A stretch of DNA of 64,000 nucleotides from Firmicutes bacterium UBA3943. GTDB lineage: Bacteria > Bacillota > UBA4882 > UBA10575 > UBA3943. Positions 3,078 to 37,498 of the stretch are shown here, one piece after another (within the stretch, counting starts at the first letter, position 1; each line of letters starts with the position of its first letter). The DNA is taken from positions 52,564 through 116,563 of the forward strand of contig DGDV01000039.1 of NCBI GenBank assembly GCA_002385625.1, given 5' to 3'. The notes under the pieces are model-generated. The model searched no databases. It had not been told where the DNA came from and was given only the letters and a program-made list of their open reading frames with translations. The position numbers were made by a program, and so were the translations under genes.

Positions 3078-3125
3078 AGGAAGAACAGCAAACCATTCTG
3101 GAGATTCAGGGAGGAACACTTGGAC

Positions 3126-4184
3126 ATGCGTAAAGTCTTATTGCAGGATTTAACCCCCGAGATGAAGCTGGCGCGGACGGTCTTTAACCCGGACGGGCGG
3201 GTATTGGTTGCCGCCGGGACAGCGGTAACACCGAAAGTTGTTGCTAGGTTGGCGGAGAAGGGTCTACCGGCCGTATATGTCAGTACACCGACCTCGCCGC
3301 TGGTGGAGGATATTATCTCCGAGAAGACCATCGCAATGCTGTTGAAACCCTTTTATGAAATGTATCAATCGATAAAAGCCGGACGCGGCCTGGAGTGGAG
3401 AGGCGTAAAAGAGCCGCTGAATGCCTTGGTTGATGAGGCGCTTAGCCATCGCCGCAATTTAGTTGGTTGGACGGATATCCGGATTCATGACGCCTACCTA
3501 TTTGGTCATTCCATCAACGTGACGGTGCTTTCGGTCCTCATGGGGATTATGTATGGCTATAACGAGATCAAACTCAGGGAATTGGCGATAGGCGCCCTCT
3601 TTCATGACCTGGGAATGTTGCTGATACCCCAGGCGATCCTGGAGAAGCGGAGTGCCTTGAATGCTGCCGAAGAGCGCCAGATGCGCGAGCACGCCAACCT
3701 TGGTTTCCAGCTCTTGCGGGGCCGGGACGATATTTCGGCGGTTTCCGCCAACATTGCCTACCAACACCATGAACGCCTGGATAAGAGCGGTTATCCCCGG
3801 AACCTTTCGGATGAGGGGATCCTTGAGATGTCCAAGATTGTAGCAGTGGCGGATGTTTATGATGCCATGACCTCCGAACGGGTCTACCGCCGCGCCCTCA
3901 GTCCACGGCAAGCTGTGAATTATCTGCGGAGTAATGCTGGACGTTTGTTTGATCCCCTTGCTGTTGCAGTTTTGGTAAAATGTGTGGCCGAGTATCCGGT
4001 TGGCACGAGAGTACGTTTGAGTAACGGGCAGATTGCTGTGGTTTCCAGGGTCAATCCAGAAGACGGACGCCGTCCTTGTGTGACAGTGGGCGGTGGACAC
4101 GAAATCAACCTGTTGGACCGGACAGAACTGGCTATTGTGGAGGAAGTGGAAGAAATTAGGTATAACGGAGCCAGCGGGGAATAA
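3126..4184 (+). CDS. HD-GYP domain protein (putative c-di-GMP phosphodiesterase)
   Basis: HDLGM...HHERLDKSGYP motifs; CAGGGAGGA RBS upstream of ATG 3126 (track start TTG 3120). Confidence 0.85.
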   Translation: MRKVLLQDLTPEMKLARTVFNPDGRVLVAAGTAVTPKVVARLAEKGLPAVYVSTPTSPLVEDIISEKTIAMLLKPFYEMYQSIKAGRGLEWRGVKEPLNALVDEALSHRRNLVGWTDIRIHDAYLFGHSINVTVLSVLMGIMYGYNEIKLRELAIGALFHDLGMLLIPQAILEKRSALNAAEERQMREHANLGFQLLRGRDDISAVSANIAYQHHERLDKSGYPRNLSDEGILEMSKIVAVADVYDAMTSERVYRRALSPRQAVNYLRSNAGRLFDPLAVAVLVKCVAEYPVGTRVRLSNGQIAVVSRVNPEDGRRPCVTVGGGHEINLLDRTELAIVEEVEEIRYNGASGE

Positions 4185-4722: not shown

Positions 4723-6257
4723 CGAAGGTGATGAGCGCTTCCGTCCTTGGTGTGGATGGTTTTACGGTGGCGGTAGAGGTGGACCTGGGGTTGGGGCTAC
4801 CGTCCTTCGATATTGTCGGTTTGCCCGACACCGCGGTGCGGGAGTCTCGGGAACGGGTGCGATCGGCCATTAAAAACTCGGGTTATGAATTTCCAGCCCA
4901 TAAGATTACTATAAATTTGGCGCCGGCCAATGTCAGAAAAGAGGGCGCCGCCTACGATCTGCCCATTGCCGTGGGGATCTTGGCGGCCCATGGGTCAGTC
5001 CGGATGGATTTGTTGGAACGCACGGTGATCGTGGGGGAATTGGCCTTGGATGGCCAGGTCCGGCCGGTCAATGGTGTGTTGGCGATGGCCCAAGCAGTGG
5101 TGGAAGGCGGGGCCGACTTCTTTGTGGTACCCCGGGAGAATCTGCAGGAGGCGGCGGTGGTGGAGGGGATTATGCCTGTCCCGGTCTGGGATATCCGGGA
5201 GACCGTGAGTTTTTTGAATGGCGACTGGCAACCCGAACCCGTCCGGGTGGACTGGGAAGAGGCGGGCCAACCGGTGTATCCCGAGGATTTTCGGGATGTC
5301 CAGGGACATGACCATGCTAAACGTGCCTTGGAGATTGCCGCTGCCGGTGGGCACAACCTCTTGTTCATCGGCCCGCCGGGCTCGGGCAAGACCATGCTGG
5401 CCCGGCGCTTACCCTCCATCCTGCCGCCTTTGACCAGGGAAGAAGCCATGGAGCTGTCCCGGGTCTATAGCGTGGCCGGGATGCTGCCGACGGGTGTCTC
5501 CCTCCTGACCCAGCGGCCCTTTCGCAGTCCTCACCATACCATCAGCGCCGCCGGTTTAATCGGCGGCGGGCGGATTCCCCGGCCGGGTGAGGTGAGCCTG
5601 GCCCATTACGGTGTGTTATATATGGATGAGTTCCCTGAGTTCCCCCGGGAGGCCTTGGAAGCATTGCGGCAGCCTCTGGAGGATGGGGTGGTGACCATTG
5701 CCCGGGCGGCCACGACCCTGACTTATCCGGCCAAGATGATGCTGGTGGCAAGTCAGAATCCCTGTCCATGCGGCTTTTTAGGCGATGCGGCCCGTCCCTG
5801 TGTTTGCACGCCCATCCAGGTTCACCGGTACCGCTCGCGAATCTCCGGACCCCTCTTGGACCGCATCGACCTGGTTGTGGAAGTACCCCGCTTGCGCCAT
5901 GATGAACTGCTGGGCAGGAAAGAGGGGGAAAGTTCGGCGGCCATCCGGGCTAGGGTGACTGCAGCCAGAAGCATTCAAACCCAGCGGTTGGCGGGGATGG
6001 GCCTGTACTGCAACGCCCATATGGGCGCCAAGGAACTGAAAATCTACTGCGCCCTGGGTGAGGCGGAGCGCCGCCTAGTGGCGAAGGCTATGCAGACTTA
6101 CAATCTCTCGGGCCGCGCCTATGCCCGCCTGCTCCGCGTAGCCCGCACCATCGCCGACCTGGCGGGATCCGACCGCATCGAACTCCCGCACTTGGCCGAG
6201 GCCTTGCAGTATCGTTACAACGAAAGAGGCCTGCCCGGCGCCGCCGGGGTGAGGTAG
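4716..6257 (+). CDS. comM: YifB/ComM family Mg-chelatase-like AAA+ ATPase
   Basis: N-terminal Lon-protease-like domain, Walker A GPPGSGKT, C-terminal Mg-chelatase subunit ChlI-like region. Full length (513 aa); overlaps the yraN stop. Confidence 0.9.
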   Translation: MLAKVMSASVLGVDGFTVAVEVDLGLGLPSFDIVGLPDTAVRESRERVRSAIKNSGYEFPAHKITINLAPANVRKEGAAYDLPIAVGILAAHGSVRMDLLERTVIVGELALDGQVRPVNGVLAMAQAVVEGGADFFVVPRENLQEAAVVEGIMPVPVWDIRETVSFLNGDWQPEPVRVDWEEAGQPVYPEDFRDVQGHDHAKRALEIAAAGGHNLLFIGPPGSGKTMLARRLPSILPPLTREEAMELSRVYSVAGMLPTGVSLLTQRPFRSPHHTISAAGLIGGGRIPRPGEVSLAHYGVLYMDEFPEFPREALEALRQPLEDGVVTIARAATTLTYPAKMMLVASQNPCPCGFLGDAARPCVCTPIQVHRYRSRISGPLLDRIDLVVEVPRLRHDELLGRKEGESSAAIRARVTAARSIQTQRLAGMGLYCNAHMGAKELKIYCALGEAERRLVAKAMQTYNLSGRAYARLLRVARTIADLAGSDRIELPHLAEALQYRYNERGLPGAAGVR

Positions 6258-22284: not shown

Positions 22285-22314
22285 TTGTCCCCGCCGGAAT
22301 AATTATGGTATAAT
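22285..22314 (+). promoter_or_regulatory. Putative sigma-A promoter with extended -10 in front of the OLE region
   Basis: TTGTCC (22285-22290), an 18-nt spacer, then TGgTATAAT (22306-22314). Confidence 0.45.
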
Positions 22315-22319
22315 GAAGG

Positions 22320-22940
22320 GGACTGGGATGGTGTAGTATTCTAGTCGGGACCCCTTTTTCGAAGACGGGCCTAAAAATCCGTTAAGGGCACATCGATGAA
22401 GTCCCTGGTGCTGGCTGCCGACGCCCAGTCGGGGGCTGGTGCTGGGGGTTAAGGTGGATGGGGCGATCTGCAATGGCATGCAGGCGTTGACCCTACCACC
22501 GCGGAGACCCAAGTTCGTGGGGAACTTGCGTGAACTACGGCTTGGGGTGGAACCTGCATTCGGTACGGTAACTTTTACTTAGTGTCGATGCAGTGTAGCC
22601 TGCCTTGAGTGAAAGGGGGGGATAGCGGGTGTCAAGCTTAAATCCCTGAAGGCCTGGGGATTTTGGCTCTTTGCCGCTTGAAACCCATTTTGCAAAAGAG
22701 GCTAGGAAAAGCGGGAACCGTTGAGGAAAACTCCTAGACTATTCGCTTCGGCGACATCCGTTGGGGATTGCAGTGTGGTCTAAGTGGTAATCCAGTCTTC
22801 TTTTCGGCAACGAAAGAAAGTGGCCTGAGAGGGAAACCGTCAAGACGGCAACGTCTTGGAGGCCATTGGGAAAACCTACTGGACCTAAGCCACAATTTTT
22901 CCCCAGCTGATGACCATCCCATATCATTATGTCATTTAAG
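22320..22940 (+). ncRNA. ole: OLE (ornate, large, extremophilic) RNA; ends approximate
   Basis: ~620 nt without a credible ORF. Tetraloop hairpins at 22418-22432, 22743-22754 (UUCG), 22802-22815 (GCAA) and 22841-22858 (GCAA). Sits in the characteristic xseAB-ispA-[ole]-oapA-dxs context. Confidence 0.7.
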
Positions 22941-22953
22941 TTGCGTTGGAGGA

Positions 22954-23565
22954 ATGAAAAGCGTGTCGAATCTGCGTCAGGCCTGTAGAACCGGTATCCT
23001 GACCTTTTTTTTATCTATCATCGTCTCTTCGCTCTCGCGAGTGTGGGCATCCACCTTTATCTTTTATTATTCGATCATTCCGCTGTTTTTGGTGATCGGG
23101 GTGGGGATCCTCTTTGACATTGTCGGTACAGCGGTAACAGCAGCCAATGAAACACCCTTGCACGCGATGGCCGCAGATAAAGTCTTCGGTGCCAAACAAG
23201 CCATTTGGTTGGTGCGTCGCGCCGACCGGGTGGCTAATTTTTGCAATGATGTGGTAGGGGATATTTGCGGTACGGCCAGCGGTGGTTTGACCGCTGTGTT
23301 GGTATATGAGTTGGTGACACGTAGCCAGGGCTTAAACATGGATATAGTTAATGTCATCAGTTTGGGACTGGTGGCGGCGCTGACCGTCGGCGGCAAGGCC
23401 TGGGGAAAGAGCACTGCCATTAATAGGGCGGACCAGATTGTCTTCAAAGTTGGACAAGCCTTGGCAACCTGGGATAGGTTTACCGGGAGAAGGCATGAGA
23501 CTGATCGGAAGGGGAAAAATACACATTCTCAGAAGAGAAATGCTTCACGGAAGCGGGGTTCTTGA
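22954..23565 (+). CDS. oapA: OLE-associated protein A-like small 4-TM membrane protein
   Basis: GGAGGA RBS directly before ATG 22954. About 4 predicted TM helices; lies immediately downstream of the OLE region and overlaps the dxs start. The track ORF start 22768 runs into the RNA and is rejected. Confidence 0.65.
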   Translation: MKSVSNLRQACRTGILTFFLSIIVSSLSRVWASTFIFYYSIIPLFLVIGVGILFDIVGTAVTAANETPLHAMAADKVFGAKQAIWLVRRADRVANFCNDVVGDICGTASGGLTAVLVYELVTRSQGLNMDIVNVISLGLVAALTVGGKAWGKSTAINRADQIVFKVGQALATWDRFTGRRHETDRKGKNTHSQKRNASRKRGS

Positions 23566-25463
23566 TGGATCGGATACTGGACAAACTAAACCTGCCGGAA
23601 GACTTAAAAAAATTATCGAATAAAGAGTTGACAGCCCTTGCTGGGGAGCTGCGGGAGATTATCATCAATACCGTGGCCCACAACGGGGGGCATTTAGCTT
23701 CAAGCCTGGGTGTAGTGGAATTAACCCTGGCCTTACATGCGGTCTTAAATAGCCCCGAGGACCACATCCTGTGGGATGTGGGGCATCAGGCCTATGTACA
23801 TAAATTGTTAACCGGTCGTCTGGAGCGTTTTCATACTCTAAGGCAATGGGGAGGTCTGAGCGGTTTTCCCAGGGCCGATGAGAGCCCTCATGATCTTTTT
23901 ACCTCCGGCCACAGTTCCACATCCATTTCCGCTGCGGTGGGTTTGGCCAAGGCCCGGGATATCCAGGGACGTAAAAACCGGATTGTGGCTGTGATCGGTG
24001 ACGGTTCCATGACCGGCGGCCTTGCTTTTGAGGCGTTGAACCACGGGGGCCAACTCCAGACTGATTTGGTGGTAGTCCTTAATGACAATGAGATGTCCAT
24101 CTCACCGAACGTGGGGGCGCTTACCGCCTATTTGAACCGCTTGCGGACAAAGCCTCAGGTTTATCGGTTGAAAAAGACCATTGGGGATATTGTGTCCCAG
24201 ATTCCCAAAGTGGGTAAATCTGCCATTCATTATTTGGAGAAGTTGAACGATAGTTTAACCTACTTGTTCATTCCTGGTGTTGTCTTTGAGGAACTGGGCT
24301 TTACTTACTTGGGCCCGGTGGACGGCCACAATATTGCACTCTTGAAGCGGACTTTGCAAGATGCCTTTGATCATGGAGGACCCGTTCTGATTCATGCCAT
24401 CACCAAAAAAGGGAAGGGTTACGAACCGGCCGAAGCAGAGCCTTGCCGCTTTCACAGCACAACCCCCTTTGACCGTGAGACCGGGCAACCCTATAGAACA
24501 CCTAAGAACGCCACTTATACCCAGGTTTTTGGCGATACCATGGTGGAATTGGCCAAAGAACACCCACAGTTGGTGGCTATTACCGCCGCCATGCCGGAGG
24601 GCACCGGTTTGAACCGGTTTTCGGAGGAATTTCCGGATCGCTTTTTTGATGTAGGCATTGCCGAATCCCATGCGGTAACCATGGCGGCTGGCCTGGCTCG
24701 TGGCGGGATGCGGCCGGTGGTGGCGGTCTATTCGACTTTCTTCCAACGGGCCTATGATCAGGTAGTCCACGATGTCTGCCTCCAGAACCTTCCCGTGGTT
24801 TTTTGCTTGGATCGGGCCGGGGTGGTTGGGGAAGACGGCCCCACCCACCACGGGGTATTTGACATTGCCTACCTGCGTCACCTGCCGAATATGGCAATTT
24901 TGGCTCCGAAGGACGAAGGAGAGTTTCGGCAGATGCTTCGGACGGTCATCAATCATGACGGCCCAGCGGCCATCCGCTATCCCCGGGGTGAGGGGGAAGG
25001 CCTGCCGCTGGACCGGGAGTTTACGGAGCTGCCCTGGGGTAAAGGGGAGGTATTGGCCACCGGCGATCAAGTATTAATCCTTGCTATCGGTAATATGGTG
25101 GCACCCGCCAGGCAGGCGGCGGCCACCTTGGCGCGCAGGGGTATTGCCTGCAGCCTTGTTAATCCACGATTTATCAAGCCCCTGGACAAGGAACTCCTCC
25201 TGCCGCTGGCCCGGAAGATCCAACGTGTGGTTACAGTTGAAGACCATGTGCTGGCGGGTGGGTTTGGTGCTGCCGTCCTCGAGCTGCTGAGTGAGGAAGG
25301 TCTATCCGAGGTCCAAGTGGAACGCATTGGTTATCCCGATTGCTTCCTGCCCCACGGGTCAACCGCCGACTTACACCGGGCCTATGGCTTGACGGAGGAA
25401 AACATTGTCCGGACGGTGATGGCCCTGGCGGCCCCTGAACGCAAAATAAAAAGTGCCAAGTAA
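23565..25463 (+). CDS. dxs: 1-deoxy-D-xylulose-5-phosphate synthase
   Basis: GGHLASSLGVVELT, DVGHQAY and GDGSMTGG (TPP) motifs; full length. Confidence 0.95.
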   Translation: MDRILDKLNLPEDLKKLSNKELTALAGELREIIINTVAHNGGHLASSLGVVELTLALHAVLNSPEDHILWDVGHQAYVHKLLTGRLERFHTLRQWGGLSGFPRADESPHDLFTSGHSSTSISAAVGLAKARDIQGRKNRIVAVIGDGSMTGGLAFEALNHGGQLQTDLVVVLNDNEMSISPNVGALTAYLNRLRTKPQVYRLKKTIGDIVSQIPKVGKSAIHYLEKLNDSLTYLFIPGVVFEELGFTYLGPVDGHNIALLKRTLQDAFDHGGPVLIHAITKKGKGYEPAEAEPCRFHSTTPFDRETGQPYRTPKNATYTQVFGDTMVELAKEHPQLVAITAAMPEGTGLNRFSEEFPDRFFDVGIAESHAVTMAAGLARGGMRPVVAVYSTFFQRAYDQVVHDVCLQNLPVVFCLDRAGVVGEDGPTHHGVFDIAYLRHLPNMAILAPKDEGEFRQMLRTVINHDGPAAIRYPRGEGEGLPLDREFTELPWGKGEVLATGDQVLILAIGNMVAPARQAAATLARRGIACSLVNPRFIKPLDKELLLPLARKIQRVVTVEDHVLAGGFGAAVLELLSEEGLSEVQVERIGYPDCFLPHGSTADLHRAYGLTEENIVRTVMALAAPERKIKSAK

Positions 25464-34083: not shown

Positions 34084-34665
34084 ATGCTAAAGACAATAAA
34101 CAATATAGCGGATTTTCTTGAGAGGGAGCTGGCATTATCAGCGGATAAAAAGGAAATATTGGTCTATTCTCTGCAGATATTGTTTTTGTTCTGCGGCACT
34201 TTTTTAGGAATCCTCTCTGTGGCCTTCTTGGTCAGCCGTTTGTGGCAGGATATTTTCTCGGAGGCGATCATTGCTTCTCTGACGATGGCAAGTTACCGCT
34301 TTGTTTCGGGTGGCTTTCATTTTAAAAATTTTATCCTTTGTATGATTATATCATCCCTTATCCCTGCGGGCATTGCCGTTCTTGCTGTGATACTTGTCCA
34401 ACAAGGCCTGAATCTCCCGACGCCGGGGTGGTGGTTGGCGTGGCTGCTGATGCTTGGTATAGCTGTTTTCTTCGCGCCACGGCCGGTGGAGGAACGACCA
34501 ATTGGCAAGAAGGAAGCTAAAAAGTTTAAGTGCTTATCCATTGTAATGTTGACTTGCTGGGGAATTATTATTAACCTGTTACCGCCTGCGATTGCTCTGT
34601 CGGTTCTGATTGGGCTGGGCATTCAGACTGCTTCAATTATTACAGGACATGCCGAAGGCAAATGA
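34084..34665 (+). CDS. agrB: AgrB family autoinducing-peptide processing/export endopeptidase
   Basis: Polytopic membrane protein. GGFHFKNFILC gives His79 and Cys86, the same His-x6-Cys spacing as the S. aureus AgrB catalytic pair H77/C84. Confidence 0.85.
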   Translation: MLKTINNIADFLERELALSADKKEILVYSLQILFLFCGTFLGILSVAFLVSRLWQDIFSEAIIASLTMASYRFVSGGFHFKNFILCMIISSLIPAGIAVLAVILVQQGLNLPTPGWWLAWLLMLGIAVFFAPRPVEERPIGKKEAKKFKCLSIVMLTCWGIIINLLPPAIALSVLIGLGIQTASIITGHAEGK

Positions 34666-34775
34666 TTTATCAGATTGGTGAAACCAAGCGACAGAAAGGA
34701 GGGATGACAGTACAACTGAATAAGGCACTGGATCTGTGGGTTGTGTTGTGTAATAATTTTGAAGGAGGGTTTCGA

Positions 34776-34898
34776 ATGGCGAAAGTAATGTTTAAGGTGG
34801 TAGTGGGGATTTTAATGGTGTTGGCTACGGCCTCGGTTTGCGGAGCTTGCATGTTTTGTATTTATCAACCTAAGGTTCCCTCTTCATTATTAGACTAA
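34776..34898 (+). CDS. agrD: AgrD-type cyclic (thio)lactone autoinducer peptide precursor (40 aa)
   Basis: MAKVMFKVVVGILMVLATASVCGACMFCIYQPKVPSSLLD has an N-terminal amphipathic helix, a Cys core and the QPxxPxSL recognition tail typical of clostridial AgrD. GAAGGAGGG RBS. Confidence 0.75.
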   Translation: MAKVMFKVVVGILMVLATASVCGACMFCIYQPKVPSSLLD

Positions 34899-34929
34899 TT
34901 ATAAACTTACTGATTTAGGAAGGTAATAA

Positions 34930-35346
34930 ATGCTAGTTACAATTGTTCAAATAGCCTTGTACATTTTACAGCCATTTTTACTGATCAAAAATGGTTTTAA
35001 GTTATGCGGCATTGACATAAAGATAAAAAATCTGCTTTATAATGCTGTTTTGTTTGGCTTAGTAATCTATTGTATAAGATCGTCCCCGCTTTCCAAGTTT
35101 TATTACTTTCCTTTGATGTTTTTAACTAATCTAATCCTAATATCTGTTATTCATCGGTTAAATATCATCCTAGCGATCGTTCCCAACTTTTTCGGATATT
35201 TGCTTGTTTTTGCCACTGAAATGATCTCTATGGTGCTTTTAAACGCAATAGGGATTACTATTGATATCAATAATGCAAGCAACATTAAAGGTCCACTGGT
35301 TTGGGTCAGTATTTTACTATTATTGCTTAATAACAGTTGTTCTTGA
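34930..35346 (+). CDS. Small polytopic membrane protein (~5 TM, 138 aa), no output domain
   Basis: AGGAAGG RBS and an AT-rich, hydrophobic ORF. It occupies the position where agrC normally sits but has no kinase domain. Confidence 0.55.
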   Translation: MLVTIVQIALYILQPFLLIKNGFKLCGIDIKIKNLLYNAVLFGLVIYCIRSSPLSKFYYFPLMFLTNLILISVIHRLNIILAIVPNFFGYLLVFATEMISMVLLNAIGITIDINNASNIKGPLVWVSILLLLLNNSCS

Positions 35347-35399
35347 TAGAAATGCAATAATTTTGTTTCCGTTAAATAAAGTAATTTTGGAGAAAAGTA

Positions 35400-36323
35400 A
35401 TGAGTAGAGACAGTCTTTTAAAAAAACCAAAGGTACCACTGCCTGAATTAGTTATCCTAATCTTCCTGTCCATAGTTTTTATTGGGGTTATTGCATATAT
35501 CTACTACTGTACGGACGTAAACGTACCTAACCTTGTTCTTGGTAGTGTTTTTATCGTTTTTTTCATCAGTTCCCTTGCAATTTTAAATGAGCTATATAAA
35601 AAGTTGGAAAAGGAATACGAAAAGAACCTCGAACTGGAGCGTATCTTTACTGCCAAATTAAACCGCACCTATGAGGGTACTTTAAAAGCCCTGTCATCCG
35701 CCCTGGACTTACGCGATCATGAGACGTGGGGTCACTCTGCCCGGGTCATTGGCTATGCCGTGGCCATCGCGAAGAAGATGGGCCTCCCGCCTCAAGAGAT
35801 TCGCATCCTTGCCTGGGGCGGATTTCTTCATGACATCGGCAAAATTGGCGTCAAGGATTCCATTTTGCTCAAAGAGGATAAACTTACACCCGAAGAATGG
35901 CGGGAGATCAAACGCCATCCATATATTGGGTATGATATGATCCGTCAAGTTGATTTTTTGGAGGAAGCGGCGGAGATCGTCCTTTTTCACCATGAGCGTT
36001 ATGACGGGACCGGGTATCCCATGGGTTTGTGTAAGGATGAGATCCCGTTAAAAGCCCGCATTTTCTCCGTTGCTGATACCTTTGATGCGATGACCAGCAA
36101 CCGGCCTTATCGCCGGCCCCGGTCTGTCAGTGAAGCCATAAAAGTCATCAGGAGCCAGGCGGGAAGACAGTTTTGTCCAGAATGTGTTAAGGCGTTTTTG
36201 CAACTTTCCAACACTGAATTGATGGAGATCCGCAGAGGTATGGTGGGCATCGACGAGATGGCCTTTTTCCATCGCGTTTTAACCCCGGACAAAAGCAAAT
36301 TGGAAAAACTAAATCTCGCTTAA
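35400..36323 (+). CDS. Membrane-anchored HD-GYP domain phosphodiesterase
   Basis: Two N-terminal TM helices, a coiled linker, then HSARV...HDIGKIGV...HHERYDGTGYP canonical HD-GYP motifs. Confidence 0.85.
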   Translation: MSRDSLLKKPKVPLPELVILIFLSIVFIGVIAYIYYCTDVNVPNLVLGSVFIVFFISSLAILNELYKKLEKEYEKNLELERIFTAKLNRTYEGTLKALSSALDLRDHETWGHSARVIGYAVAIAKKMGLPPQEIRILAWGGFLHDIGKIGVKDSILLKEDKLTPEEWREIKRHPYIGYDMIRQVDFLEEAAEIVLFHHERYDGTGYPMGLCKDEIPLKARIFSVADTFDAMTSNRPYRRPRSVSEAIKVIRSQAGRQFCPECVKAFLQLSNTELMEIRRGMVGIDEMAFFHRVLTPDKSKLEKLNLA

Positions 36324-36345
36324 AAGACCGTAAAGGTCTTTTTTG
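36322..36345 (+). terminator. Rho-independent terminator closing the agr/HD-GYP cluster
   Basis: AAGACC-GTAAA-GGTCTT followed by TTTTT. Confidence 0.75.
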
Positions 36346-36493
36346 ATTTTCCTTTAATTATCTCTTGGGAAAGGGAAGACGGCTGCTCCTTTTTCACGCA
36401 AGGGTTTAAATATATAATGTATAATGGATTTATCATGGCTGATTCAGTAACAAAAAACAGGTAGGCCTTTGGGGATGAAAGGGGTAATTTCCA

Positions 36494-37498
36494 ATGCTAT
36501 GTTCGAAGCAGTTTAAATGCTGGGGTAAATTCCTGATTGGACTTGTTGCTTTTGGAGGGATTCTCCTTTGGTGGCGGCTTTATCGTACACCTGTCCGTGT
36601 CACGGATTATTATATGGGAACATTCTTTACTATTACCGCCTATGGGCCAAGGGTCAAGAGCGGTGTTGATGCCGCAATGCGGGAAATTGCCCGAATTGAG
36701 GCCCTGACCACGGGTTCCCGTGGTCCGGTGGCGGAATTAAACAATAATACCGGCCGATGGATGCGTGTACCGGGCGAATTGTACCGGTTGTTGCAACGTG
36801 TTGATACCTACCGATCTGCAACCGATGGGTATTTCGAACCGGCCATTGGTTCGTTGGTTGAGCTTTGGGGGTTTGGTTATGGCGGGGAAGGACAGCTTCC
36901 GACCCTGTACCGGATTCAAGAGGAGACGGCGCGACTTAGCCAACCAGGATTAGAATTTCGGAAAAACTCCAGGGAAGTGCGGCTTCGCCCAAGGACCAAA
37001 TTGGACTTGGGGGGCGTAGCCAAGGGGTATGCGGTGGACCGGGCAGTCGAGGTCCTGCGTCAGTACGGGGTACGTAGCGCCCTTGTCAATGGCGGAGAAA
37101 GCAGTATCCGTGCCTTGGGCACCCGGCCTGGCGGTGCACCATGGCGGATTGGCCTGCCCCATCCCAGGAACAAAGATTGGATCGGTGTCTTTGAGCTGCC
37201 GGGAGGAATGGCCATGGGGACCTCTGCCGATACCCAGCGTTACTTCATCCGTAATGGTCGGCGGTACTCCCATTTGATTAACCCGAAAACAGGTTATCCG
37301 CCGGAGGACGTTTATTGGGTCTCTGTGTTAGCGCCCAGTGCCCTCCAGGCAGATGTGTATTCTACAGCGGTGTTTGTCTGTGAAGGCGAGGATCGGCTGG
37401 AAGTTTTACGACAATGGAATGTTGAAGGTGCGGTGGTTCCGGCCAAAGGGGATGTGCAAATGACCCAGGAATACCGGAATTGCTTGCGGGATAAATAG
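36494..37498 (+). CDS. apbE: FAD:protein FMN transferase (ApbE family)
   Basis: LDLGGVAKGYAVD and TSADTQRYF motifs with an N-terminal anchor. Confidence 0.85.
   Translation: MLCSKQFKCWGKFLIGLVAFGGILLWWRLYRTPVRVTDYYMGTFFTITAYGPRVKSGVDAAMREIARIEALTTGSRGPVAELNNNTGRWMRVPGELYRLLQRVDTYRSATDGYFEPAIGSLVELWGFGYGGEGQLPTLYRIQEETARLSQPGLEFRKNSREVRLRPRTKLDLGGVAKGYAVDRAVEVLRQYGVRSALVNGGESSIRALGTRPGGAPWRIGLPHPRNKDWIGVFELPGGMAMGTSADTQRYFIRNGRRYSHLINPKTGYPPEDVYWVSVLAPSALQADVYSTAVFVCEGEDRLEVLRQWNVEGAVVPAKGDVQMTQEYRNCLRDK

What the first reader, a model, noticed from the sequence alone, without database searches (positions are those of the whole stretch)
34084..36347. Non-canonical agr locus: agrB-agrD followed by a kinase-less membrane protein and a membrane-anchored HD-GYP phosphodiesterase
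Seen in the sequence: four co-directional genes with RBSs and one terminator at the end (36322-36345). They are AgrB (His79/Cys86, the same spacing as the S. aureus catalytic pair), a 40-aa AgrD, a 138-aa ~5-TM protein, and a 307-aa protein with 2 TM helices plus an intact HD-GYP domain (HD...HHERYDGTGYP). The whole 64-kb window contains no histidine kinase (AgrC) and no LytTR regulator (AgrA). Established knowledge: canonical agr systems signal through AgrC/AgrA, orphan agrBD pairs exist in clostridia, and HD-GYP domains hydrolyse c-di-GMP or related cyclic dinucleotides. Inference: the cyclic peptide may be sensed at the membrane by the small polytopic protein and/or the TM region of the HD-GYP enzyme. 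The output would then be second-messenger turnover rather than phosphorelay, linking peptide quorum sensing directly to cyclic dinucleotides. I do not know of a described example.
Basis: partly seen in the sequence, partly recalled or inferred. Interest (0 to 1): 0.75.

Follow-up and report, generated by a model that had tools for sequence, protein, structure and literature searches.

The report
Peptide quorum-sensing operon with c-di-GMP phosphodiesterase output
An agr-type cyclic-peptide signalling operon in an uncultured Bacillota bacterium carries, in place of the usual kinase and regulator, a stand-alone five-helix membrane protein related to the sensor part of peptide-sensing kinases plus a membrane-anchored cyclic-dinucleotide phosphodiesterase. 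The same four-gene cassette recurs in several distant relatives, which suggests a direct, phosphorelay-free route from a peptide pheromone to a second messenger.

Summary
The four genes are real: AgrB (Pfam 2.9e-24, His79/Cys86 invariant), a 40-aa AgrD (TIGR04223 2.2e-11), a small membrane protein, and a 2-TM HD-GYP with all metal ligands. A terminator follows, and no kinase or receiver domain was detected in the 64 kb. One correction: the "138-aa" ORF is a 158-aa gene truncated by one extra T at 35323/4. The intact form overlaps the HD-GYP start codon. The cassette agrB-agrD-5TM-HD-GYP recurs in seven distinct lineages (HD-GYP identity down to about 45%), once in a different chromosomal context. 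None of about 64 generic HD-GYP loci has it. The small protein belongs to an uncatalogued family (360 clusters) homologous to the first five helices of 7-TM AgrC-class kinases that sit beside LytTR regulators. A split kinase (5TM + 2TM kinase core) mirrors the arrangement here. The 5TM protein and the HD-GYP membrane anchor are the fastest-diverging parts of the locus. Best reading (about 0.6): a split peptide receptor whose output is cyclic-dinucleotide hydrolysis. Caveats: orthologous HD-GYPs exist without agr, the evidence is genomic only, and no paper describing this was found.

The parts
34084..34665 (+). agrB: membrane cysteine endopeptidase/cyclase that processes AgrD (193 aa)
   Evidence: Pfam AgrB E=2.9e-24. 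His79/Cys86 invariant among cassette AgrBs. GAGGG ribosome-binding site upstream.
34776..34898 (+). agrD: 40-aa autoinducing-peptide precursor. Predicted ring CMFCI followed by the conserved YQPKVP follower motif.
   Evidence: TIGR04223 E=2.2e-11, above cutoff. GGAGGG ribosome-binding site. Homologous AgrDs with variable rings and a conserved YQPxxP in every related cassette. Gene callers sometimes use the 78-aa start at 34662.
34930..35407 (+). 5TM gene: stand-alone five-helix membrane protein, 158 aa when intact. In this window it is frameshifted by an extra T at 35323/35324, so the ORF as read ends at 35346 (138 aa) and the C-terminal part continues in another frame to 35407.
   Evidence: P0001 is 98% identical and 158 aa long. 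Contigs L104/L105 lack the T. Profile search found 360 relatives, including the N-termini of 7-TM HPK10 kinases. AF2 pLDDT 93.9, 5 TM helices plus a C-terminal helix. K/R distribution supports N-out/C-in topology. No Pfam or NCBIfam family.
35400..35714 (+). HD-GYP protein, residues 1-105: TM hairpin (TM1 residues 14-37, a roughly 5-residue outer loop, TM2 from residue 43) running as one continuous helix (43-105) into the catalytic domain
   Evidence: AF2 model with alignment A1, helices H14-37 and H43-105. Hydropathy. This segment is only 43% identical to L001, against 81% for the catalytic part.
35715..36323 (+). HD-GYP catalytic domain (residues 106-307) with intact metal ligands and GYP motif, and a conserved C-terminal GxQFCP motif
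   Evidence: HD_5 E=3.6e-39. Invariant H107/H112/H144/D145/H173/H197/H198/E199/G205-Y206-P207/D226 in 36 relatives. PmGH 4MCW E=3e-41, V-cGAP3 5Z7C E=1e-35.
36322..36345 (+). Intrinsic-terminator-like hairpin plus T-run closing the four-gene unit
   Evidence: Scan and sequence. The next gene (ApbE, 36494) has a promoter-like site at 36391-36418.
34800..35600 (.). Low-GC (31-33%) stretch that coincides with the fast-diverging 5TM gene and the HD-GYP membrane anchor
   Evidence: Composition profile. Per-gene identities window vs L001: 5TM 34%, HD-GYP N-terminal part 43%, AgrB 62%, HD-GYP catalytic part 81%, ApbE 76%.

Best explanation
This is a non-canonical agr-type quorum-sensing operon whose receptor is split into two polypeptides and whose output is an enzyme rather than a phosphorelay.

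1. AgrB cyclises and releases a peptide from AgrD. The predicted five-residue thiolactone ring is CMFCI.
2. The secreted peptide is recognised in the membrane by the 5TM protein. This protein is the detached equivalent of helices 1-5 of a 7-TM AgrC-class (HPK10) receptor.
3. The 5TM protein packs against the two-helix anchor of the HD-GYP protein. Together they rebuild a 7-TM, N-out/C-in receptor.
4. The conformational change travels down the continuous TM2/cytoplasmic helix into the HD-GYP domain.
5. This changes hydrolysis of c-di-GMP (or a related cyclic dinucleotide such as 3'3'-cGAMP).

Shown: gene identities, intact catalytic residues, conserved linkage, homology of the 5TM protein to kinase sensor modules, topology, and fast divergence of the membrane parts.

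Inferred: peptide binding by the 5TM protein, the 5TM-HD-GYP contact, the direction of regulation, and the substrate.

In this particular window the 5TM gene has a one-base frameshift. The system may therefore be sensor-defective in this strain, or the base may be an assembly error.
For: (1) Conserved cassette.
- agrB-agrD-5TM-HD-GYP is seen in the window, L001, L002/L003/L094/L095, L090-L092, L093, L096 and L097/L098.
- HD-GYP identity falls to about 45%, and GC content ranges from the window's roughly 31-59% to 56% in L097; L090 looks GC-rich, but I did not compute its GC.
- L090 has a different downstream context (a GntR regulator rather than ApbE).
- None of 64 generic HD-GYP loci has AgrB or a 5TM gene.

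(2) Translational coupling. The 5TM stop overlaps or abuts the HD-GYP start in L001, L002, L090, L093, L096, L097 and in the intact form of the window gene.

(3) Homology of the 5TM protein to kinase sensor modules.
- The 5TM profile hits the N-terminal ~150 residues of 428-483-aa kinases carrying SPOB_a + HATPase_c_5, at E of about 3e-10 to 3e-7 against 1.84e9 proteins.
- The broader profile scores 2.5e-33 on the L103 kinase, which sits next to a REC-LytTR regulator.
- These kinases have two further TM helices before the DHp domain.

(4) A natural split kinase. L106 encodes a 170-aa 5TM protein followed by a 288-aa 2TM-SPOB_a-HATPase_c_5 protein. This is the same 5+2 split with a kinase in place of the HD-GYP.

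(5) Topology fits a 7-TM receptor: 5TM is N-out/C-in and the HD-GYP hairpin is N-in/C-in.

(6) The HD-GYP outer loop is only about 5 residues, and TM2 continues as a 63-residue helix into the enzyme. The protein has no ligand-binding ectodomain of its own.

(7) Receptor-like hypervariability. Window vs L001: 5TM 34% and HD-GYP anchor 43%, against 76-81% for the catalytic domain and the flanking ApbE, with AgrD ring changes (CMFCI vs CMFSL).

(8) A second agr-linked c-di-GMP architecture exists: 5TM-agrB-...-2TM-GGDEF-HD-GYP in L108.

(9) Catalytic residues are intact relative to the active enzyme PmGH.
Against: - Orthologous 2TM-HD-GYPs occupy the same Dxs...HD-GYP-ApbE-RimP-NusA position with no agrBD or 5TM within 5 kb (L086 Capillibacterium, L087, L088; also L004, L089, L007). 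The enzyme can therefore exist without the cassette.
- In other loci the 5TM gene sits upstream of, and overlaps, agrB. It is followed by TM-PAS-HisKA kinases that have their own multi-TM regions (L100-L102, L107). This also fits a role alongside AgrB.
- Homology between the HD-GYP hairpin and kinase TM6-7 is not established (hhalign probability 73% over 33 columns).
- The 5TM profile does not match the S. aureus AgrC sensor (the sequence was recalled from memory and is unverified).
- The window and L001 5TM proteins lack the family's near-invariant PxGxH motif.
- Only 64 kb of the genome is visible, so an AgrCA pair may lie elsewhere.
- No experimental data exist.
Confidence: 0.6

Rival explanations
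1. The 5TM protein is an AgrB partner in peptide maturation or export, for example leader removal or release. This would be the role played by SpsB or MroQ in S. aureus (established knowledge, recalled). The HD-GYP is simply co-transcribed cargo, or it senses something else through its own anchor.
For: The 5TM gene accompanies agrB in every AgrB-sampled locus where the flanks are visible. In L100, L101 and L108 it lies immediately upstream of agrB and overlaps it. In L107 it lies between agrB and agrD. The downstream kinases in L100/L101 have their own multi-TM regions.
Against: The family is homologous to the sensor end of receptor kinases. It also occurs fused to, or paired with, HPK10 kinase cores where no agrB is seen on the contig (L103, L106). 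The family alignment shows no protease-like motifs. Its extreme divergence between sister lineages is typical of receptors. It is translationally coupled to the HD-GYP, not to agrB, in all seven cassettes.
Confidence: 0.2
2. The adjacency is historical rather than functional. The 2TM-HD-GYP is a resident housekeeping gene next to apbE, and an agrBD-5TM cassette landed beside it in a variable region between dxs and apbE. The peptide is sensed by an unlinked kinase (AgrC, VirS-like or a sporulation kinase) elsewhere in the genome.
For: The synteny Dxs...HD-GYP-ApbE-RimP-NusA is conserved with and without agr. The region between dxs and the cassette varies in content. Orphan agrBD loci with distal receptors are well known in clostridia (established knowledge; C. 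difficile agr1, PMC8534292).
Against: The cassette, including its HD-GYP, also occurs outside this synteny (L090). A different c-di-GMP enzyme follows agrB-5TM in L108. Start/stop overlap of the 5TM and HD-GYP genes is conserved. The HD-GYP membrane anchor co-diverges with the 5TM protein and AgrD. In an NJ tree the agr-linked HD-GYPs include the deepest branches of the subfamily, which suggests ancestral linkage with later losses (no support values).
Confidence: 0.12
3. In this strain the locus is a decaying, non-functional remnant, because the 5TM gene is frameshifted.
For: An extra T at 35323/4 truncates the protein within TM5 and removes the conserved C-terminal helix and the overlap with the HD-GYP start.
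Against: Two other assemblies of essentially the same organism carry the intact gene. All other genes of the cassette are intact with conserved catalytic residues. The difference is one T in a TT run, and a base-calling or assembly error cannot be excluded. Even if real, it concerns this strain and not the system.
Confidence: 0.08

Closest known systems
Canonical agrBDCA quorum sensing (Staphylococcus aureus, Listeria, Clostridium acetobutylicum)
   Same: It has AgrB with the catalytic His/Cys and a short AgrD with a five-residue Cys (or Ser) ring and a conserved follower motif. The signal and sensor region is hypervariable. The receptor module is related to the membrane part of AgrC-class (HPK10) kinases.
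   Different: There is no AgrC kinase core and no AgrA LytTR regulator in the operon or the window. The sensor is a separate 5TM polypeptide. The output is a membrane-anchored HD-GYP phosphodiesterase, so no phosphotransfer or direct transcriptional autoinduction is implied.
Orphan agrBD loci of clostridia (C. difficile agr1; C. perfringens agrBD with VirS/VirR; C. botulinum)
   Same: agrB and agrD are present without an adjacent AgrCA pair.
   Different: Here the locus is not orphan. It carries a conserved candidate receptor (5TM) and an effector enzyme, translationally coupled. I could not check whether the uncharacterised genes in the C. perfringens agr operon belong to the 5TM family.
RpfC/RpfG DSF signalling in Xanthomonas
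   Same: A quorum signal controls an HD-GYP c-di-GMP phosphodiesterase.
   Different: In Rpf the signal is a fatty acid, and the HD-GYP is soluble and activated by phosphorylation of its receiver domain by a hybrid kinase. Here there is no receiver domain. The enzyme is itself membrane-anchored and is presumably gated within the membrane.
Intramembrane-sensing kinases that rely on accessory membrane proteins (BceS with BceAB, LiaS with LiaF)
   Same: A two-helix anchor with a minimal outer loop cannot bind ligand itself and depends on a partner membrane protein encoded next to it.
   Different: Here the output is an HD-GYP rather than a kinase. The partner is a 5TM protein homologous to pheromone-receptor sensor domains, not a transporter.
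PmGH (PDB 4MCW), V-cGAP3 (5Z7C) and PA4781 (4R8Z): solved HD-GYP enzymes
   Same: The catalytic domain is 81-279 residue-for-residue alignable with all metal ligands and GYP conserved.
   Different: Those proteins carry soluble N-terminal domains (GAF-like, REC, or a tandem HD-GYP). This one has a 2-TM hairpin and a long signalling helix. The substrate cannot be assigned from sequence.

Membership tests
agr quorum-sensing system | AgrB-family membrane peptidase with catalytic His and Cys | tested here: met
   Pfam AgrB 85.9 bits against cutoff 23. H79 and C86 invariant in alignment A7.
agr quorum-sensing system | AgrD precursor: short peptide, amphipathic leader, Cys/Ser five residues before the cleavage site, conserved acidic or Pro-containing follower | tested here: met
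   TIGR04223 43.6 bits against cutoff 19. Ring plus YQPxxP pattern conserved in all cassettes.
agr quorum-sensing system | Adjacent AgrC (HPK10 histidine kinase) | tested here: not met
   No kinase hit in the whole window at E<=10 with an HPK10-core HMM that detects kinases in control loci.
agr quorum-sensing system | Adjacent AgrA (REC + LytTR regulator) | tested here: not met
   phmmer with a REC-LytTR protein found no hit in the window at E<=10, against 78 hits in control loci. The rest of the genome is not visible.
HD-GYP cyclic-dinucleotide phosphodiesterases | HD_5/HD domain above Pfam threshold | tested here: met
   HD_5 134.7 bits against cutoff 27.2; HD 80.9 bits against cutoff 22.
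HD-GYP cyclic-dinucleotide phosphodiesterases | Full set of metal ligands (ExxxH, HD, H, HHE, D) and the GYP motif | tested here: met
   Invariant columns in A1. Residue-by-residue alignment to active PmGH 4MCW.
HD-GYP cyclic-dinucleotide phosphodiesterases | Hydrolysis of c-di-GMP (or 3'3'-cGAMP) | not testable with these tools
   The closest solved relatives include both a c-di-GMP enzyme (4MCW, 4R8Z) and a cGAMP-specific enzyme (5Z7C).
RpfG-type response-regulator HD-GYP | N-terminal receiver (REC) domain | tested here: not met
   No Response_reg hit. The N-terminus is a 2-TM hairpin.
HPK10 (AgrC-class) pheromone-receptor membrane sensor module | Sequence homology of the 5TM protein to the N-terminal TM region of kinases with SPOB_a/HATPase_c_5 cores paired with LytTR regulators | tested here: met
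   Whole-library E from 2.9e-10 (P0179) to 3.4e-07 for the eight SPOB_a/HATPase_c_5 kinases. E=2.5e-33 with the 50-sequence profile on the L103 kinase, which neighbours a REC-LytTR gene.
HPK10 (AgrC-class) pheromone-receptor membrane sensor module | Detectable similarity to the S. aureus AgrC sensor itself | tested here: inconclusive
   Negative score against an AgrC-I sequence recalled from memory (unverified). Its kinase core did match the HPK10 HMM at 3.9e-29. AgrC sensors are known to be highly divergent.
HPK10 (AgrC-class) pheromone-receptor membrane sensor module | Binds the cognate cyclic peptide | not testable with these tools
   Only indirect evidence: hypervariability co-located with AgrD ring changes.

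The most novel reading that the evidence does not exclude
Peptide-pheromone receptors of the AgrC class are modular. A detachable 5TM ligand-binding module, from an uncatalogued family of about 360 sequence clusters, plugs within the membrane into interchangeable 2-TM-anchored outputs. These outputs are an HPK10 kinase core, an HD-GYP phosphodiesterase or a GGDEF-HD-GYP enzyme. In this lineage an agr autoinducing peptide would therefore set cyclic-dinucleotide levels directly, with no phosphorelay and no transcription factor in the primary pathway.
Probability: 0.5. Interest if true: 0.85.

Novelty: new variant of a known kind. Interest (0 to 1): 0.78.

Why it matters
If correct, this would be the first described case in which an agr-type cyclic peptide is read out by a second-messenger enzyme rather than by AgrC/AgrA. 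It would join Gram-positive peptide quorum sensing directly to c-di-GMP signalling.

It also points to an undescribed protein family that looks like the ligand-binding half of AgrC-class receptors existing as a separate polypeptide. That would offer a small, tractable object (about 160 aa, confidently modelled) for studying how cyclic peptides are recognised in the membrane. No experimental structure of that membrane domain was found here.

The family may also supply candidate receptors for some "orphan" agrBD loci. Finally, the design suggests a way to build synthetic peptide-responsive enzymes.

Tried and rejected
- **Genome-contig scan with the HD-GYP subfamily alignment.** It was swamped by generic REC-HD-GYPs from other phyla. 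It served only as a negative control: 0 of 64 had AgrB or 5TM.
- **Metagenome-contig scans.** The three-sequence AgrB alignment (A8) worked but gave only 9 loci. A viral-contig scan gave none.
- **Single-sequence word-indexed search for the 138-aa protein.** It found only its own species. The family appeared only with a profile search of all representatives.
- **Structure comparison.** Foldseek of the 5TM model against the PDB found nothing at E<=0.001. The PDB sequence profile gave no hit. The AFDB library was not available.
- **hhalign of the HD-GYP TM hairpin against kinase TM6-7.** Probability 73% over the juxtamembrane helix only, so homology of the two anchors is not claimed.
- **S. aureus AgrC sensor (from memory) against the 5TM profile.** No similarity.
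- **tblastn of AgrB.** No match against phages. Two plasmid records matched, and both turned out to be informative.
- **Sigma-70 promoter scan.** No convincing promoter upstream of agrB, so the transcript structure remains inferred from spacing, overlaps and the single terminator.
- **Literature.** Searches combining agrB/agrD with HD-GYP, c-di-GMP, orphan, split or sensor domain returned reviews and unrelated papers. None describes this cassette or a split AgrC.
- **Rejected idea: the small protein as a CAAX/Abi-type protease.** The family alignment has no conserved Glu-Glu or His motifs of that kind.
Full report
**1. What is in the sequence**

Window 34084-36345 holds four co-directional genes.

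- **AgrB (34084-34665).** It passes the Pfam AgrB threshold (E=2.9e-24). It keeps the invariant His79 and Cys86 seen in all cassette AgrBs aligned here.
- **AgrD (34776-34898, 40 aa).** It passes TIGR04223 (E=2.2e-11). Its Cys lies five residues before a conserved YQPKVP follower, which predicts the ring CMFCI.
- **Small membrane protein (34930-35346 as read).** It has no Pfam or NCBIfam family.
- **HD-GYP (35400-36323).** It has a strong HD_5 domain (E=3.6e-39). It aligns to the active enzyme PmGH (4MCW, E=3e-41) with every metal ligand and the GYP motif conserved.

A hairpin plus T-run follows at 36322-36345. Each gene has a purine-rich ribosome-binding site.

An HPK10-kinase HMM and a REC-LytTR query found nothing in the whole window even at E<=10. 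The same probes found many kinases and 78 receiver ORFs in control loci.

**2. A correction: the small gene is frameshifted**

A 98%-identical protein in the databases is 158 aa long. Two independent contigs, 99.8% identical to the window, lack one T at 35323/35324.

In the intact form the gene ends at 35407 and overlaps the HD-GYP start codon (35400). The window copy is therefore truncated inside its fifth helix. The cause is either an assembly error or a strain-level mutation.

**3. Genomic setting**

The locus lies between dxs (23562-25463) and apbE (36494-37498). An OLE RNA sits upstream of dxs.

The closest named relative is Capillibacterium thermochitinicola, which NCBI places in Bacillota incertae sedis. 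The window's own species is not among the GTDB representatives; the best match there is 58% identical.

**4. Is the linkage conserved?**

The HD-GYP belongs to a tight subfamily of about 300-aa proteins. Members have a 2-TM N-terminus and a C-terminal GxQFCP motif.

Neighbourhoods with the same order, agrB-agrD-5TM-HD-GYP:
- L001, HD-GYP 70% identical.
- L002/L003/L094/L095, about 50% identical, with a second 5TM paralog after the HD-GYP.
- L093.
- L096 and L097/L098, about 45% identical, with Ser-ring AgrDs.
- L090-L092, an apparently GC-rich organism where the cassette is followed by a GntR-type regulator instead of apbE.

In all of these the 5TM stop overlaps or abuts the HD-GYP start.

By contrast, several orthologous 2TM-HD-GYPs lack agrBD and 5TM within 5-6 kb. 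L086 (Capillibacterium), L087 and L088 sit at the same syntenic site. L004, L089 and L007 sit elsewhere. None of 64 generic HD-GYP loci from other phyla has either gene.

In a neighbour-joining tree of the catalytic domain, agr-linked members are scattered and include the deepest branches. This favours an ancestral cassette with repeated loss. The tree carries no support values.

**5. What the small protein is**

A profile of five cassette proteins was searched against 1.84 billion representatives. It found 360 relatives at E<=1e-3.

- Most are stand-alone proteins of 150-175 aa.
- Nine of the best 150 are histidine kinases of 428-499 aa, matched over their first ~150 residues. Eight of them carry SPOB_a + HATPase_c_5, the AgrC/HPK10 type. 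The ninth (P0244) has HisKA + HATPase_c.
- One of these kinases (P0179, L103) sits next to a REC-LytTR regulator. The 50-sequence profile scores it at 2.5e-33.
- These kinases have two more TM helices between the matched region and the DHp domain, seven in all.

L106 encodes a natural split version. A 170-aa 5TM protein is followed by a 288-aa protein with two TM helices, SPOB_a and HATPase_c_5.

AF2 models the 158-aa protein confidently (pLDDT 93.9) as five TM helices plus a short C-terminal helix. The K/R distribution gives N-out/C-in.

The HD-GYP model shows TM1, a five-residue outer loop, and a single 63-residue helix running from TM2 into the catalytic domain. Its charge pattern gives N-in/C-in. 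So 5 + 2 helices reproduce the topology of the 7-TM kinases. The HD-GYP alone has no surface with which to bind an external peptide.

**6. Receptor-like evolution**

Between the window and its sister L001 the identities are as follows.

| Region | Identity (%) |
|---|---|
| Flanking ApbE | 76 |
| HD-GYP catalytic domain | 81 |
| AgrD | 75 (ring changes CMFCI to CMFSL) |
| AgrB | 62 |
| HD-GYP membrane anchor | 43 |
| 5TM protein | 34 |

The same stretch (34800-35600) is compositionally distinct at 31-33% GC. This mirrors the known hypervariable agrB-agrD-agrC(sensor) block of staphylococci (established knowledge). It argues that both the 5TM protein and the HD-GYP anchor take part in signal specificity.

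**7. Other partners of the 5TM family**

- AgrB-based sampling found 5TM(x1-2)-agrB-agrD-TM-PAS-HisKA kinase in L100-L102.
- A Clostridium beijerinckii plasmid has agrB-5TM-agrD followed by a fragmented TM-PAS kinase. The 5TM gene is not listed in the record's gene table.
- A mislabelled "Klebsiella" plasmid record has 5TM-agrB followed by a 2TM-GGDEF-HD-GYP protein.

The 5TM family is thus generally linked to agr, and c-di-GMP enzymes recur as partners. However, the position next to agrB in these loci keeps open a role in peptide maturation or export.

**8. Mechanism and confidence**

The best-supported reading (about 0.6) is a split AgrC-like receptor. The 5TM module binds the AgrD-derived peptide and gates the HD-GYP through helix-helix contacts and the long signalling helix, changing c-di-GMP or cGAMP turnover.

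Rivals:
- The 5TM protein is an AgrB accessory (0.2).
- The adjacency is historical and the real receptor is distal (0.12).
- The locus is decaying in this strain (0.08).

Peptide binding, the protein-protein contact, the sign of regulation and the substrate are all inferred.

**9. Novelty**

Pfam and NCBIfam have no model for the 5TM family. The PDB has no sequence or fold relative.

Full-text searches found no description of an agr-HD-GYP cassette or of a split AgrC. The nearest precedents are:
- canonical agrBDCA;
- orphan clostridial agrBD loci;
- the Rpf DSF system, where quorum sensing reaches an HD-GYP through phosphorelay;
- intramembrane-sensing kinases with accessory membrane proteins.

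I rate this a new variant of a known kind, with high interest for both the quorum-sensing and the c-di-GMP fields.

Noticed in passing
window 22312-22933 (+): A full-length OLE (ornate large extremophilic) RNA, 524 bits, lies just upstream of a 265-aa ORF and dxs. From memory, this resembles the usual ispA-OLE-oapA-dxs arrangement. The relatives L086 and L087 have an unannotated gap at the equivalent place.
   Followed up: partly
window 35323-35324: There is a one-base (T) insertion relative to two 99.8%-identical metagenome contigs. It truncates the 5TM gene from 158 to 138 aa and breaks its overlap with the HD-GYP start. It could be an assembly error or a sensor-defective variant.
   Followed up: yes
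window 3120-4184 (+): A second HD-GYP-type protein (354 aa, HD_5 E=3e-28) is encoded about 30 kb upstream, so the organism has more than one such enzyme. Its N-terminal region was not analysed.
   Followed up: partly
L002 6944-7432; L101 3841-4323 and 4511-4999: Some loci carry two paralogous 5TM genes. In L002 they flank the HD-GYP and are 36% identical to each other. In L101 they sit in tandem upstream of agrB. This hints at hetero-oligomeric sensors or sensors with dual specificity.
   Followed up: no
L108 (NZ_CP061968.1, 'Klebsiella pneumoniae plasmid unnamed3'): This 27-kb record has 58% GC and Bacillota-like genes (agrB, 5TM, GGDEF-HD-GYP). It also has an inverted duplication: two copies of a 525-aa protein and of the HD-GYP end. 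It looks like a mis-assigned or mis-assembled contig rather than a Klebsiella plasmid.
   Followed up: partly
L107 1319-1807 (C. beijerinckii plasmid NZ_CP107023.1): A 162-aa 5TM-family gene between agrB and agrD is absent from the record's gene table. The TM-PAS-histidine-kinase downstream is broken into several short ORFs annotated as hypothetical proteins.
   Followed up: partly
L096 ~1940-1990 and L097 ~5700-5750: The AgrD precursors of these cassettes have Ser instead of Cys at the ring position (SFIIG, SIVIG). This predicts lactone rather than thiolactone peptides.
   Followed up: no
window 34662-34898: Gene callers on related contigs annotate AgrD as a 78-aa protein starting at an ATG that overlaps the agrB stop. 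The 40-aa form, with a strong GGAGGG site at 34776, fits the AgrD family model and the L001 gene call better.
   Followed up: partly
alignment A5 / window 5TM residues ~52-60: The window and L001 5TM proteins lack the family's near-invariant PxGxH(T) motif in the second outer loop and the PE motif in helix 1. It is unclear whether this reflects altered ligand chemistry or relaxed constraint.
   Followed up: no
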